Shown: positions 43,550 to 63,596 of the stretch, one piece after another
Layout of the letters: each line of letters opens with the position of its first letter
Numbering within the stretch: position 1 is the stretch's first letter
Source: Chiloscyllium plagiosum
Taxonomy: Eukaryota
DNA: 63,599 nt
Assembly (NCBI RefSeq): GCF_004010195.1
Contig: NC_057748.1
Span: forward strand, 10,540,428-10,604,026
Direction of reading: 5' to 3'
Translations under genes and position numbers: made by a program
Notes under the pieces: generated by a model
What the model was told of the DNA's origin: nothing
Databases searched by the model: none
The model's input: the letters and a program-made list of their open reading frames with translations, nothing else

Positions 43550-46500
43550 CTAACTGCTGTCCTCCAGCGAGAGCCTGTCAAACAGGTACTCTCCCAGCCC
43601 ATTCTCAGGAGCTCCCAGACGCTTCAGGTTGGTGATGTAGTCCCCAAGTCGCTTGATGATCTCAACCTCCTCATCCAAATAGTGAGTCTCCAGGAAGTCA
43701 CACAGCTGGAAGGAAGGTAGACAGACAGTCAGCTACTATAAGAGAAGCCAGAATGTAGGGTGATCAGTTCCTATCCAGCTCATTCTCCAACATTCAAGTT
43801 GTTTACACCTGATGTCAAAAACTAAACATGAGTGGGGGGGGGGGGGAAAGAAAGGTGGCACAGTCTTAAGTTACTTCACTGACCAGTTAAGGGTTTCACT
43901 GGGGTGGTGAGTGTGTTAAATAGAGACTGACATTGGGTAGATGATATACAATTCATCACATTAGGATCACAGACAGATGTAGTAGTCAGCATACACAGCA
44001 AGATCCCAGTGACCTGGACAGTTGACTGACAAGTACAGGATAAACATTGGCCACATTTCAAAGGGTACATCCCCGTTCTTAAACGGCTCAAACTCCCTCC
44101 AGTGCACATTGGTGAGCTCATGGGACCCACAGTGCACCTTACACCAAGTGTCCCTGAAGTGGACCTCTAATCTAGAACACTGGCTCATGGTTGTGCTCCA
44201 TTTAGGGGGAACGCTACAGTGAAATGCATTGGACTGGGTCTGGCAGCATCGTGAAACAAGATTCCTGTCTCAGGTCCCATGACCCTTCATAACTGAAGGG
44301 TTACCCAATTGCTCAGAGATGCTGCAAGATAACAGTATGCTTTTGGGCAGCAGTGGCTCAGGTTAGCACTGCTGCTTCACAAGTCCTGGGTTCAATTCCA
44401 GCCTTGGGTGACTGCAAAATCCAGACATTGTGTCTGGATGGGTTTCACCTGGTTTCCTCCCACAGCTGTGCAGGTCAGGTGAATGGGCCATGGTAAGCTG
44501 CCCATACTGTTAGGTGCATTAGTCAGAGGGGATGGGTGACTCTTCAGAGGGTCAGTGCAGACTTGTTGGGCTGAAAGGCCTGTTTTCACATTGTAGGGAA
44601 TCTAATCTAATCAGTTTCACCAGCAATTTGTCTTTGCAGAATCTGCAGATGGATGCAAGGCCAGTTGTATCCAATATCAAGGAATGTTATTCACTTAGGA
44701 TTCCTGCTTCCAGGGACACTGAAGTGCTATGCTGAGGGTCTGGCAGTGATGAGAATGAGGTGGTGGTGAAGCTTACATGAGGGTCAGTCTGGGCAGTGGC
44801 AAGTTGGTGTAGATCCAGCAAACTCTGGTTCACATTCTTCTCCAGATCCAGGGCAACCTGCATCGCCTGCAGACCATTACCCCACTCATCCCTCTCTGGC
44901 TTCTGAAACATGGAAATAAAGGACAGTTAAGGATCAGGACAACAGTTACCAGCTATTGGAGGTCTGTCACCTTGCCTACTTGTACTTTCTCTTACTGATC
45001 AGTTGGATTGAGAGATAGCCTAAACATCACCTTGTAAGTTAGGCTACACATGATTAATGTACAGTAAAATGTATTGTTCTGTGTGTAGTCTTTGCCAGTA
45101 TAACAAGGTCAGACAGGCAAAGCTCCCCTTCGGAATGTGAAAACTCAGTTACTGATGGCTTGAAGCCACATCATGAGAGCAGCCATTCCCCTCCCCAACA
45201 TTCCCACCTTCACATCCTGGAGGAAGACTCTGCCTCCACGCTGATTCTGGAATTTCAGCAGCTTCTCTGCATGTTCCTGCTTCTCCTGGGACTGAGCTTT
45301 GAAGAACTGAGAGAAATGATGCAGGGCAACATCATCCCGGTCAAAGTACGACATCTGAAAGAGAACCATTTACATCCCATTAACACACTGGGCCCAATTG
45401 TAGGTCTCAAAGCTGGAAGCAGCCCCTTCCCAGCTTCTGTCTGATCAGACCATGTTCAGTAAGAATCCTTTTCAATTTCCTCAGGTAGATTGAACAGTCT
45501 CACTTAATGTCCTGTTCAGTGGAAGGTTAGCCAGTAGATAGTGGACTTCAGTTGCACTACAAATACGGTAGTTGCAGAAGTCGTAGCTTTCGTGGCAAAG
45601 TGGAGATTTAGTCTCATTGCTTTCAGTATAACAGTGATAGAGATGCACAGCCCAGAAACAAACCATTTGGTTCAACCTGTCTATGCCAACCAGATACCCC
45701 AACCCAATCTAGTCCCATTTGCTAGTACCTGGCCCATATCCCTCCAAACCCTTCCTATTCATATACCCATCCAGATGCCTCAAATGCTGTAGTTGTACCA
45801 GCCTCCACCACTTCCTCTGGCAGCTCATTCCATACACATACCACCCTCTGCATGAAAAGTTTGCCCCTTAGGTCTCATCTTCGCCCCCCCCCACCTCATC
45901 CTAAACCTATGCCCTCTAGTTCTGGACTAGATCCTATCCATATCCCTCAATTTTATAAGTCTCTACAAGGTCACCCCTCGACACTCCAGGGAAAACAGCC
46001 CCAGCCTATTCAACTTCTCCCTATAGCTCAAACCCTCCAACTGTGGCAACATCCTTGTAAATCTTTTCTGAACCCTCAAGGGTCAGAACATCTTTCCATT
46101 GGGAAGGAGACCAGATTTGCATGTAATATTCCAACAGTAGCCTAACTAATGTCCATTGAGGAATCATTCTTAAATGATTTGGGAAGTGTAGTAGTAGCCA
46201 GAATTCAACTGAGCACTAAAAATAAAGGTTGGAAAAAGGATGATCGGGGACTTCATAAATACTACAGAAGTGGAAGAGAAGGTAAATTGTTTAAAAAAAT
46301 TCATCTTTCTCCAGGGCAAAACCAGGAGAAGCTATAGGAAGGTGGTAAAATGTTAGTCAATTCAAAGCATGAATTCTAACAGCAACTGACACTTTCCATC
46401 TGAACCACAAGTCATCTAAATAAAGGAAAAATCTAGATATACACAGCTGGCGTCAGAAAGTGATTGTGCAGCAAGTTTAAAACCCAACTGAGTGACTAAT

Positions 46501-48273
46501 GAGGCTCTTGGGAAAATACTGGAAAATCTCAGCGGGTCTAGCAGCATCTCGGTTTCAGATTCCAGCATCCACAGTATGCTTTATTTTAAGCAGTCTCTTG
46601 TATTTAAATACACCATAGGAGCAGAAATTAGGCCATTCAGCCCACTCCATTCAAGTGTGGAATATGGGTTTGATTGTAAGTTTGATCCCCTTGGCAAGGA
46701 GAAAGCAGAAGGTGGAGAGAAACATGTCTTAACTTACAGAATCACCCAGCCTCCACTGGCAATGAATTTCAAAAGATTCACTTCTGACAAAGTAGTTTCT
46801 CATCTGTACCAAAAGGGTCTCCCTTTAAGCAGTCCTTGGGTCCTGGTCTCTGCTAAGATTGGGATGATGGTTCCCATTAGCAGGAGAGACAAGGACCCAG
46901 CTTTAGTGTGGACATTAGCCCACTAGATGTCACCATTCACAGTGCAGTGAGATGAATTGGGGTCTGTCACTCCATTACCCACTACCCCAGGGAATGCAAC
47001 AAGCACAAATTGTGTCTAGGCAGACAGTGAATGTTATAACTAACCAAGAGAAAATTTACAGCTCTTTGAATGGTCAATTATCTATCCCACAGCCCAGTGG
47101 AGGCAAAATTAATGCAAGCTTGTATTGTTACATACTTAAGACAAGTAAATCAACTAGAAGAAACCAACACAATGTTGTTTATTAGACCAACATGGTTGAA
47201 GTGGGCAAGAGGGGTGTTAAGAGGTGAACATTAGTACAGAAGGAAGCCACTCCATCCATCACATCTAACAGGACTCAAATCTTAGACCTGTCTCCATAAG
47301 GAGACAAGTTTACTTCATAACAGGTGCCTTTTAAAATAGTGAATACTTATTGAATAAAACTATGAGTTCAGCTGTCACATGAAACAGACATTGGTGTTTC
47401 CTATATCTAAATCAAACCACAGGCATTTCACACTTGCACATTATACCTATTTACAGTTGAGACACCAAGAGGGTCCAATAACTGATCAGACCCCCATTTA
47501 ACATTAGATCTTAGTAACCTTTTCTTCTGCACCTTGGCAGCAGCTATCTTAAGTATTAGGGCATCCCTCAACAGTTCTAGAGCTTGGAACATACCATCTA
47601 CAACACAAGCCAGGGTCAACTCTGACATAAAAAGACAATTTCAGGCAGACCAAGAGCATCTTTCATGGAGTTGATGGTCCTTCAGGCAAAGTCAGTGTTT
47701 CTCAGTGTGCATCCCCAGGAACAAACCAGGGAGTAGAGAGCTGCTCAGGACAAGCCTCAACAAACTTTAATCCACACTTCCTTTGCAAAGTTACAGTCCA
47801 GAAGGAGATAAGAGAGTCTGTAAAGTCCCCTCCTCAACTGTTTCAAAGCAGCAGAGACACAGACAGACCAGGCACATGAAAGATCTCACAGGCACTATCC
47901 TTCTCAACACTAGACAAGCCATATCATGGTACTTGTTGGAAAGTTCAAGTGAAGAGGTATTCTATCAGATAGAGGAGTCTGCTCAGGGAACCACACCACA
48001 GGACCTACATTCTTTTATCAAGGACAGCATACATTCCTGATGGACTCATGATCAAAAGGAGTATTTCTTTAACCATTTCACTACAAGGGGCAGGAGACAT
48101 AGAACAGTCCAGCTACTTGGAGCATTCCAGTTTCATAGATAGATGTCACTTTAAACCAAAACAACACTCACCAAAGACTGATAGAGATAGGAGGCAGTGA
48201 GCTCCAGGTTAATCTGCTTGTTGACAGCAGCTTCACAATCCTGGTGATAGTTTTGACAAACCTGGGAAGCCAT
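43550..48273 (-). CDS. Ferritin subunit, copy 1, 176 aa; exons 48273-48172, 45354-45208, 44902-44777, 43705-43550
   Basis: Four phase-0 GT-AG exons of 102/147/126/156 nt at canonical vertebrate ferritin intron positions. Protein: [179 protein letters not shown] subtype not resolved. Confidence 0.97.
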
Positions 48274-48360
48274 TTTACCAATAGAGCCTTCACCAAACTA
48301 CCACCAACAAACACAACCCTATCACACACCAACTATACTCAAATCCCCTCTCCCATTGAA

Positions 48361-48500
48361 TTTATACCCCAGGAATTAAGCTGTAATTCAAAGACATCAT
48401 CAGTGATGACCAATCACTCTTGTTAATCAATTGATCAGTTGCCATGTCCAATCAGATTTGAATCAGCCCAGCATGACATTTTGGAACTCAGGAACCAATC
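48361..48500 (-). promoter_or_regulatory. Ferritin copy 1 core promoter (TATA plus clustered CCAAT boxes)
   Basis: GGGGTATAAA on the - strand (TATAAA at 48361-48366), about 88 nt above the ATG. CCAAT motifs near 48410, 48448 and 48495. Conserved in copy 2. Confidence 0.7.
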
Positions 48501-63300: not shown

Positions 63301-63338
63301 GCCACTGATTAGAGCAGAGTAGGAGAGATCAAATGATC

Positions 63339-63344
63339 TTTATT
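63339..63344 (-). terminator. PolyA signal, ferritin copy 3
   Basis: AATAAA on the - strand at the position homologous to copy 2. Confidence 0.75.
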
Positions 63345-63440
63345 TCCCATTTGTTTCTTCAGTACAAGTTCCTGCTTTCTGGAGAAATTCTCCCAAGGAG
63401 TTGGATACAAAACAGGCAAAGACCACAGTCAAAGTCCCCA

Positions 63441-63596
63441 CTAACTGCTGTCCTCCAGCGAGAGCCGGTCAAACAGGTACTCTCCCAGCCCATTCTCAGG
63501 AGCTCCCAGACGCTTCAGGTTGGTGATGTAGTCCCCAAGTCGCTTGATGATCTCAACCTCCTCATCCAAATAGTGAGTCTCCAGGAAGTCACACAG
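63441..63596 (-). CDS. Ferritin subunit, copy 3, exon 4 only (gene continues beyond the window)
   Basis: 156-nt exon encoding the same LCDFLETHY...LEDSS* peptide, with the acceptor at 63597-63598. Confidence 0.95.

What the first reader, a model, noticed from the sequence alone, without database searches (positions are those of the whole stretch)
43550..63596. Tandem ferritins with a probably disabled ferroxidase site and an H/L mosaic of key residues
Seen in the sequence (human H numbering, aligned by eye): E27, Y34, E61, H65, E107 and the 3-fold channel residues H118/D131/E134 are kept. Position 62 is Lys (SQEKQEH against H-chain SHEEREH). Position 141 is Glu (LDEEV against LNEQV). The 4-fold pore segment is LFDRLSL (H: LFDKHTL; mammalian L: LFERLTL). 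Established: E62 bridges the two irons of the ferroxidase centre, and K62, E141 and L173 are mammalian L-chain hallmarks. The L-type nucleation glutamates at 57 and 60 are absent here (A57, Q60). Inference: an amplified cartilaginous-fish ferritin class that is neither a normal ferroxidase nor a classic L nucleator. It could be an early L-lineage state or a cage repurposed for a high-abundance storage or structural role. Both complete copies share all these changes and are intact, which argues against decay.
Basis: partly seen in the sequence, partly recalled or inferred. Interest (0 to 1): 0.8.

Follow-up and report, generated by a model that had tools for sequence, protein, structure and literature searches.

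The report
Shark ferritins with blocked catalytic site
These are intact, tandemly repeated bamboo-shark ferritin genes from an old shark gene class whose iron-oxidising site carries the same lysine as mammalian L-ferritin; they probably partner the normal ferritins of the same cluster, which would mean sharks evolved a heavy/light division of labour of their own.

Summary
Observation confirmed. There are two complete four-exon ferritin genes and the last exon of a third, on the minus strand, all intact. E27/Y34/E61/H65/E107 are kept, with K62, E141 and L173. The two copies are under purifying selection (dN/dS 0.10), and no IRE was found.

K62 marks one clade (100/99) found in carpet, requiem-type, mackerel and cow sharks. 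It falls in the M/L ferritin lineage and is most likely sister to a larger intact-site (E62) class. In 8 of 8 species checked, both classes lie on a contig of the same length.

The 'H/L mosaic' is weaker than claimed. L173 is shared with the intact class (34 of 68 E62 clusters). E141 is confined to carpet sharks, so it is convergent. E61, E64 and E140 of the nucleation face are kept.

Best reading: a ferroxidase-dead, L-like partner subunit for a probably ovarian, iron-independently expressed heteropolymer. The expansion and its ovary expression are already reported (Greenland shark preprint); I found no description of the K62 class. Activity, co-assembly and expression are untested. Mammalian L was not available for the tree, so shared ancestry of K62 is not excluded.

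The parts
48172..48273 (-). Copy A exon 1 (ATG; aa 1-34; E27, Y34)
   Evidence: 102 nt, GT donor
45208..45354 (-). Copy A exon 2 (aa 35-83; A57, Q60, E61, K62, E64, H65)
   Evidence: Pfam Ferritin E=9e-9
44777..44902 (-). Copy A exon 3 (aa 84-125; E107, H118)
43550..43705 (-). Copy A exon 4 (aa 126-176 + TAG; D131, E134, E140, E141, L173)
43416..43421 (-). AATAAA 129 nt after the copy A stop codon
48361..48500 (-). Copy A promoter-like region: TATAAA (48366-48361) and three CCAAT-box motifs (48410, 48448, 48495); no IRE between TATA and ATG
   Evidence: post-hoc Poisson p about 5e-4 for 3 in 200 bp; Rfam 0 hits
48300..49600 (-). Upstream block about 88-99% identical per 100 columns between units A and B, more conserved than the introns (candidate regulatory region or conversion tract)
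60025..60126 (-). Copy B exon 1
55367..55513 (-). Copy B exon 2 (K62)
54904..55029 (-). Copy B exon 3
54065..54220 (-). Copy B exon 4 (E141, L173, stop)
53957..53962 (-). AATAAA after copy B
60186..60328 (-). Copy B promoter-like region: TATAAA (60191-60186) and two CCAAT-box motifs (60276, 60323)
63441..63596 (-). Copy C exon 4, protein-identical to A and B (E141, L173); the rest lies beyond the window, so K62 was not seen for this copy
63339..63344 (-). AATAAA after copy C
43546..63599 (-). Head-to-tail tandem array; exon-4 spacing 10,515 bp (A-B) and 9,376 bp (B-C); whole units including introns and spacers are homologous (72-82% BLAST identity over the long blocks)
50073..52568 (+). Decayed LINE (SGNH/GDSL-domain ORF1 and reverse-transcriptase fragment) inserted in unit A only, after the duplication
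   Evidence: Lipase_GDSL_2 E=2e-13; RVT_1 E=5e-10; unit B aligns across the gap, 61916 to 61931

Best explanation
The genes encode a catalytically dead, L-like partner subunit that evolved inside the shark M/L-lineage ferritin cluster. SHOWN: intact genes; purifying selection; no IRE; K62 defines an old shark clade; a larger intact-site (E62/Q141) class lies on a contig of the same length in the same species. INFERRED: (1) K62 removes the glutamate that bridges the two irons and salt-bridges to the retained E107 as in mammalian L, abolishing fast Fe2+ oxidation and stabilising the fold (about 0.85). (2) The subunit co-assembles into 24-mers with the E62 class, which oxidises the iron, while K62 subunits supply shell, stability, the intact 3-fold entry channel and weak nucleation through E61/E64/E140 (about 0.7). 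(3) The cluster is transcribed at high dosage in the ovary, free of IRP control, to stock iron and guard against redox damage in large yolky oocytes (about 0.7). K62 most likely arose convergently with mammalian L; E141 was added later in carpet sharks.
For: Residues and gene models. dN/dS 0.10, Fisher p=3e-4. K62 clade 100/99 (12 rows of 87) and 100/100 (7 of 50), following shark phylogeny. 21 class-diagnostic columns across 7 genera. K62 and E62 clusters share the same longest-contig length in 8 of 8 species (C. punctatum, C. plagiosum, Stegostoma, Hemiscyllium, Mustelus, Carcharodon, Cetorhinus, Heptranchias). Exon 4 (D-helix end and 4-fold interface) is more alike between the two classes within a species than between species (0.800 vs 0.778, permutation p=0.005; exons 1-3 p=0.28-0.69); positions 137, 165 and 172 track species rather than class. 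E62K+H65G kills H-chain ferroxidase: PMC6929972 passages. K62-E107 salt bridge in all mammalian L: PMC2603009 passages. L nucleation uses E60/E61/E64 with E140; FtMt uses E61/E64: PMC12022971 passages. Shark ferritin cluster is ovary-specific in RNA-seq: bioRxiv 2024.09.09.611499 section 6. E62K is a single-base change and recurs in 2 frog L chains and 3 Heptranchias clusters with an E-class backbone.
Against: No activity, structure or expression data exist for this class; no model could be made. The loss-of-function passage I read is the double mutant E62K+H65G, whereas H65 is kept here. The class has lost E53 and E57 relative to its sister class, the opposite of what a better nucleator should do, and human H also has E61/E64 yet is said not to nucleate there (PMC13411386). 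K62 was not seen in the listed clusters of Pristiophorus (0 of 18), Scyliorhinus (0 of 5), Heterodontus (0 of 4), batoids (0 of 6) or Callorhinchus (0 of 4), so it may be dispensable. The ovary report is for another species and does not separate the classes. The exon-4 signal ignores relatedness among species and may be plain gene conversion. The sister relationship is unstarred, and AU tests did not reject K62+K27-type L (p=0.164) or K62+tetrapod M (p=0.204).
Confidence: 0.5

Rival explanations
1. A repurposed cage: the K62 class is an abundant oocyte protein that no longer handles iron (storage protein, chaperone or structural shell) and works as a homopolymer or an inert filler.
For: It lost the ferroxidase bridge and the cavity acids E53 and E57, has no IRE, a long stem branch (0.16-0.17) and 21 fixed differences, many outside the metal sites. 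Invertebrate 'atypical' ferritins, including sponge HdF2 with E62K, lack IREs and are proposed to have other roles (PMC8395497 passages).
Against: The 3-fold channel H118/D131/E134 and E61/E64/E107/E140 are kept across most of the clade, unlike HdF2. The 4-fold segment tracks the intact class within species.
Confidence: 0.2
2. Deep homology: K62 arose once before sharks and bony vertebrates split, and the shark class is the orthologue of mammalian FTL.
For: All shark cluster genes fall in the M/L group (98/91). Teleost M is reported orthologous to mammalian L (PMC4117605 passages). The K62 lineage appears to have split from the E62 class before the chimaera split (P0117 groups with the E62 class, 98/92-99/93). 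The basal M/L nodes are unresolved, and AU tests do not exclude other placements.
Against: 90 of 92 named non-chondrichthyan clusters have E62, and the 2 exceptions are K27-type frog L chains. This sample is the best-scoring lists and holds no mammalian L. Amphibian and coelacanth L are disabled through K27 instead, and turtle and lizard relatives are intact, so many losses would be needed. Basal K62 sharks keep E27, H65 (R in some) and Q141. Maximum likelihood prefers the shark E62 class as sister in both trees.
Confidence: 0.1
3. The subunit keeps a slower or altered oxidase activity: one iron at site A (E27, H65) with E107, E141 and E61 supplying ligands, so E141 partly compensates for K62.
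For: E27, Y34, H65 and E107 are kept in all window copies and most of the clade after more than 200 My (divergence date from PMC/bioRxiv: about 250 My between squalomorph and galeomorph sharks), while mammalian L lost 27 and 65.
Against: A lysine puts positive charge in the middle of the di-iron site. H65 is R or Y in 3 of the 10 database K62 sequences used (P0056, P0060, P0123), so site A is not strictly kept. E141 is absent outside carpet sharks.
Confidence: 0.12
4. Neutral passengers: birth-and-death or concerted evolution of a huge array spread a defective variant that has no function.
For: Exons are homogenised relative to introns (synonymous 7% vs intron about 12-17%, p=0.003), which shows gene conversion. 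Distribution among sharks is patchy.
Against: dN/dS 0.10. K62 and the class-diagnostic residues are kept across four shark orders. Splice sites, TATA, CCAAT and poly(A) signals are intact.
Confidence: 0.08

Closest known systems
Shark ferritin gene expansion (Greenland and great white shark; bioRxiv 10.1101/2024.09.09.611499; seen: passages and section 6; supplements closed)
   Same: Large tandem clusters of full-length ferritin genes, ancient and conserved between sharks; the preprint reports 155 'FTL' and 179 'FTH1' copies and ovary-specific expression of the largest cluster.
   Different: In the main text searched it gives no active-site analysis and does not describe K62 or two functional classes. 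Whether its FTL/FTH1 labels match the K62/E62 classes is unknown.
Mammalian L-ferritin (FTL)
   Same: K62 with E107 retained (salt bridge), E141 (carpet sharks only), L173, E61/E64/E140, 4-exon gene, M/L lineage.
   Different: Keeps E27 and H65; lacks E57 and E60 in the window copies; no IRE; multi-copy. Overall closer to frog M and H chains: no mammalian L chain was among the best 60 of 242 PDB matches of P0009.
Amphibian and teleost M (middle) ferritin, e.g. bullfrog M, PDB 1MFR
   Same: Best solved match (281-283 bits); 69-70% identity; same length and lineage.
   Different: M has an intact ferroxidase centre (E62, Q141) and E57; salmon M mRNAs carry IREs.
Amphibian/coelacanth 'lower' (L) subunit
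   Same: Ferroxidase-dead member of the M/L lineage; amphibian ferritin genes also form a tandem cluster (PMC13003380 section 2.1).
   Different: Disabled through K27 and S141, with E62 usually kept; separate clade (100/98); only 55-60% identical.
Atypical invertebrate ferritins (sponge HdF2; PMC8395497 passages)
   Same: Natural E62K, IRE-less class, coexists with a conventional ferritin.
   Different: HdF2 also loses E27, E61, H65 and E134, is minor and single-copy; here the channel is intact and the class is amplified.

Membership tests
Animal 24-mer ferritin (Pfam PF00210) | Ferritin domain, ~175 aa, 4-exon/3-intron gene | tested here: met
   gene structure as described in PMC4117605
Animal 24-mer ferritin (Pfam PF00210) | 3-fold channel H118/D131/E134 | tested here: met
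Animal 24-mer ferritin (Pfam PF00210) | Assembles into a 24-mer and mineralises iron | not testable with these tools
   needs recombinant protein; no structure model was obtained
H-chain (FTH1) | Complete ferroxidase centre E27, Y34, E61, E62, H65, E107, Q141 | tested here: not met
   K62 and E141; residue list from PMC2603009
H-chain (FTH1) | Groups with FTH1 orthologues | tested here: not met
   H group is on the other side of a 98/91 branch; Callorhinchus P0101 is the chondrichthyan H
M-chain (middle subunit) | Intact ferroxidase centre plus L-type carboxylates (E57, E64) | tested here: not met
   K62, E141, A57; E64 kept
M/L paralogue lineage | Placement in the M/L clade | tested here: met
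   96/90, 98/91, rooted on H
M/L paralogue lineage | Synteny with the GYS1/RUVBL2/NUCB1/DHDH neighbourhood (amphibian cluster; match to human FTL locus is recalled) | tested here: inconclusive
   no flanking gene recognised in window 1-43,300 (one non-ferritin, non-repeat-like candidate was scanned, no Pfam match)
Mammalian L-chain (FTL) | K62 with E107 (salt-bridge pair) | tested here: met
   residues present; geometry not modelled
Mammalian L-chain (FTL) | Loss of E27 and H65 | tested here: not met
   both kept; absence in L from PMC6929972
Mammalian L-chain (FTL) | Nucleation carboxylates E57, E60, E61, E64 (+E140) | tested here: not met
   A57 and Q60; E61, E64 and E140 kept
Mammalian L-chain (FTL) | L173 at the 4-fold pore | tested here: met
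   present, but not diagnostic: 34 of 68 E62 chondrichthyan clusters have it
Mammalian L-chain (FTL) | 5'-UTR iron-responsive element | tested here: not met
   Rfam 0 hits in the whole window and 0 at E<=10 in 47900-49000; no CAGUGN loop between TATA and ATG in A or B
Mammalian L-chain (FTL) | Orthology (clade with FTL) | not testable with these tools
   no mammalian L sequence was among the 238 proteins returned by the three homologue searches
Amphibian/coelacanth lower (L) subunit | K27-type inactivation and clade membership | tested here: not met
   E27 kept; separate clade in both trees, although AU p=0.164 does not reject sisterhood

The most novel reading that the evidence does not exclude
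The K62 lesion is inherited, not convergent: a ferroxidase-dead L-type subunit already existed in the jawed-vertebrate ancestor's M/L cluster, survives in sharks as an amplified ovarian class and in mammals as FTL, and was lost elsewhere. The L-chain would then have begun as an oocyte iron-storage partner, and the shark protein (K62 but still E27/H65) would be a living first step of the H-to-L path.
Probability: 0.1. Interest if true: 0.75.

Novelty: new variant of a known kind. Interest (0 to 1): 0.47.

Why it matters
Sharks carry hundreds of ferritin genes, and this has been discussed without looking at their active sites. The cluster holds two old classes, one intact and one carrying the mammalian-L lysine. 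This bears on claims that the copy number means more ferroxidase or anti-oxidant capacity. It would be a further origin of a catalytically dead partner subunit in vertebrates beside mammalian L and K27-type amphibian L. It also gives a natural stepwise series (K62 alone; K62+E141; K62+E60; K62+R65) for testing which changes make an L chain and why dead subunits are selected. The principle itself is well known, so this is an evolutionary and biochemical refinement, not a new mechanism.

Tried and rejected
1. First exon boundaries were off by a few bases and gave a frameshift; corrected.
2. Pseudogene decay: rejected by intact ORFs, signals and dN/dS 0.10.
3. Alignment artefact at position 62: rejected, the block is gap-free.
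4. My first idea, that K62 is carpet-shark specific: overturned (Mustelus, Carcharodon, Cetorhinus, Heptranchias).
5. L173 and the 4-fold segment as markers of the dead class: rejected.
6. Flanking gene for synteny: 226 non-repeat ORFs of at least 40 aa in 1-43,500 were listed and read by eye. 12 non-ferritin ORFs of the window went to Pfam: 2 matched LINE domains and 10 nothing. No neighbour gene was identified, and small exons could have been missed.
7. Mammalian FTL for the tree: a search with bullfrog L listed 120 of 2,534 hits, none a mammalian L.
8. A structure model, and therefore a K62-E107 distance and fold search, could not be obtained. Cluster member lists were unavailable. A complex prediction was not run, since ferritin subunits would pass by likeness to solved cages.
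9. Literature: ten searches found no paper describing K62 in shark ferritins. The library lacks most subscription journals, and bioRxiv supplements were closed. The 2012 vertebrate ferritin evolution paper was not held. None of the 12 papers listed contained 'Q137E'. PMC13701976, PMC2887969 and PMC6917665 (passages) added nothing specific.
10. Rows dropped: 42 of 238 stored proteins were left out of residue counts (unnamed sources, redundant mammalian H copies, a fusion construct, two apparently mislabelled 'bacterial' entries). The trees used 85 and 49 database rows plus the window copies; fused or partial gene models were omitted.

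
Full report
OBSERVATION. The right third of the window holds a head-to-tail array of ferritin genes on the minus strand. Splicing by coordinates gives two complete four-exon genes of 176 aa (A: 48273-43550; B: 60126-54065) with GT-AG phase-0 introns, plus exon 4 of a third copy cut by the window end. 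TBLASTN found no further ferritin exon in 1-43,549, so A is the last copy on that side. With H numbering = window residue + 3, E27, Y34, E61, H65, E107, H118, D131, E134 and E140 are present, and positions 62, 141 and 173 are K, E and L; 57 and 60 are A and Q. The block around 62 aligns without gaps to solved H chains and in a 39-sequence alignment.

THE GENES ARE ALIVE. A and B differ at 3 non-synonymous and 8 synonymous sites (415 and 113 sites; dN/dS 0.10; Fisher p=3e-4). Synonymous divergence (7%) is lower than intron divergence (17% by global alignment, p=0.003; that figure is inflated by non-homologous inserts, and introns 1 and 2 give 12-15%). This points to gene conversion of exons. 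Each complete copy has a TATAAA 65-93 nt before the ATG, two or three CCAAT motifs, and all three copies have an AATAAA 97-129 nt after the stop. About 1.3 kb upstream is roughly 88-99% identical between units. No IRE was found: Rfam gave 0 hits in the window at gathering scores and 0 at E<=10 around the A start, and there is no CAGUGN loop in either short 5' region. Salmon H and M ferritins do have IREs (PMC4117605, passages).

SOURCE AND RELATIVES. The nearest named proteins are from Chiloscyllium plagiosum and C. punctatum (173/174 and 172/176 identical to A), so the window is inferred to come from a bamboo shark. Three homologue searches listed 44 of 44, 120 of 3,423 and 120 of 2,534 hits, 238 distinct proteins, of which 196 named ones were scored. 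K62 is in 33 of 104 chondrichthyan clusters and 2 of 92 others, both K27-type frog L chains. It occurs in Chiloscyllium, Hemiscyllium, Stegostoma, Rhincodon, Mustelus, Carcharodon, Cetorhinus and Heptranchias. It was not seen in Pristiophorus (0/18), Scyliorhinus (0/5), Heterodontus (0/4), batoids (0/6) or Callorhinchus (0/4). The same species that have K62 copies have an amplified class with an intact centre (for example P0063, 127 members; P0032, 180 members; member counts include repeated annotations and are not copy numbers). In 8 of 8 species, K62 and E62 clusters are listed on a contig of the same length, which I read as the same chromosome.

PHYLOGENY. An 87-row LG+G4 tree and a 50-row LG+C20 tree, rooted on H chains, both recover the K62 sequences as one clade (100/99 and 100/100) with Heptranchias basal. 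The shark E62 class forms another clade, which takes in Callorhinchus P0117 (99/93, 98/92). The two are sisters at 93/89 and 93/87, short of a star. All lie in the M/L group (96/90, 98/91), whose base is unresolved. Amphibian and coelacanth L chains are a separate clade disabled through K27. AU tests did not reject K62 + K27-type L (p=0.164) or K62 + tetrapod M (p=0.204). No mammalian L chain was available, so the direct test of FTL orthology stays open. Three Heptranchias clusters with K62 on an E-class backbone (P0028, P0042, P0044) were not in the trees; with the two frog cases they show that E62K recurs easily.

THE 'MOSAIC' TAKEN APART. E141 is in 19 of 20 aligned carpet-shark K62 clusters and 0 of 9 K62 clusters of other sharks. 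It is a late, lineage-specific change and therefore convergent with mammals. L173 is in 34 of 68 E62 chondrichthyan clusters and also in some turtle, gecko and bichir proteins with an intact site. As a control, the C-terminal 40 residues of the intact class P0063 score best against solved L chains (60.7 bits, H about 57), higher than the window's segment does (L 54.4, frog M 55.0, H 47.5). The L-like pore is thus a property of the cluster, not of the dead class. What defines the class is K62 and 20 other fixed differences across 7 genera, including loss of E53 and E57. On the cavity face E61, E64 and E140 remain. Solved L-chain iron clusters use E60/E61/E64 with E140, and mitochondrial ferritin nucleates at E61/E64 (PMC12022971, passages). 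Three lamniform members carry E60 as well. Against this, human H has E61/E64 and is said not to nucleate there (PMC13411386, passages).

MECHANISM. E62 belongs to both iron sites, and E62K+H65G abolishes H-chain ferroxidase activity (PMC6929972, passages). K62-E107 is the stabilising salt bridge of mammalian L (PMC2603009, passages). That E62K alone suffices is inferred; strong effects of single E62 substitutions and of frog-M Q137E are recalled, not read here. Solved frog-M variants with E at that position appear. No model could be made. The simplest working picture is a heteropolymer: intact-class subunits oxidise iron, and K62 subunits add shell, stability, entry channels and modest nucleation. 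One sequence signal fits joint assembly or conversion between classes. Exon 4, which encodes the 4-fold interface, is more similar between classes within a species than across species (0.800 vs 0.778, permutation p=0.005; other exons not significant), and positions 137, 165 and 172 follow species, not class. The permutation ignores relatedness, so this is suggestive only. The tissue is inferred from the Greenland shark preprint, which reports 155 'FTL' and 179 'FTH1' copies, about 80% in three clusters shared with the great white shark, and ovary-specific expression of the largest (bioRxiv 2024.09.09.611499, section 6 read). An IRE-less, high-copy array suits iron-independent stockpiling in oocytes (inference).

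WHAT IS KNOWN. The expansion and its ovarian expression are in print. Dead partner subunits are known in mammals, amphibians and invertebrates; sponge HdF2 has a natural E62K (PMC8395497, passages). Amphibian ferritin genes also cluster, beside Gys1, Ruvbl2, Nucb1 and Dhdh (PMC13003380, section 2.1); that this is the human FTL neighbourhood is recalled. Ten searches found no description of a K62 class in sharks. The library omits most subscription journals, and the preprint's supplements could not be seen and may bear on this. I also recall a second Greenland shark genome report of a ferritin expansion that one search did not find.

VERDICT. Real, intact and old; it works like an L chain by inference, but is not an FTL by the tested features (E27/H65 kept, E57/E60 and IRE absent). 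New variant of a known kind. The two-class structure of the shark cluster appears undescribed and is directly testable.

Noticed in passing
window 50073-52568: Decayed LINE with an SGNH/GDSL-domain ORF1 and an RT fragment, inserted upstream of copy A and absent from unit B; it dates after the A/B duplication.
   Followed up: partly
window 56237-57541 and 59156-59428: Two recent tandem duplications inside copy B intron 1 (653 bp at 98%; about 140 bp at 93%), which explain much of its extra length.
   Followed up: no
window 48300-49600 and the homologous block upstream of copy B (about 60150-61450): About 1.3 kb upstream of the ATG is more conserved between units (about 88-99% per 100 columns) than the introns: a candidate shared enhancer/promoter with clustered CCAAT boxes, or a conversion tract.
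   Followed up: partly
window 36504-36626 (-): A 41-codon stretch beside the 500-N gap that reads like coding sequence; no Pfam match and no clear splice donor; unexplained.
   Followed up: partly
window 1-43300: About 43 kb downstream of the array is repeat-rich (41% self-matching) with two N gaps (12501-12856, 36628-37127); no host gene was recognised.
   Followed up: partly
P0088, P0096 (Heptranchias), P0048 (Pristiophorus); P0028, P0042, P0044 (Heptranchias): Further changes at position 62 on an intact-class backbone (E62N in three clusters, E62K in three).
   Followed up: no
P0057, P0059, P0060 (Carcharodon, Cetorhinus): Lamniform K62 members have E60/E61/E64, the full L-type tri-iron triad, unlike the window copies.
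   Followed up: no
P0113, P0127, P0137, P0159 and related: A separate, apparently low-copy chondrichthyan M-type clade with an intact centre is listed on contigs of the same length as the amplified class in Heterodontus, two Scyliorhinus species and Pristis; probably the somatic member of the same locus.
   Followed up: partly
P0219, P0128: Database entries named as Yersinia pestis and Aeromonas veronii ferritins rank among vertebrate ferritins on short contigs; probably contaminants or mislabels.
   Followed up: no
P0001, P0003-P0006, P0045-P0047: Many shark 'ferritin' entries are chimeric or exon-duplicated gene models, showing that annotation of the array is unreliable and copy counts are rough.
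   Followed up: no
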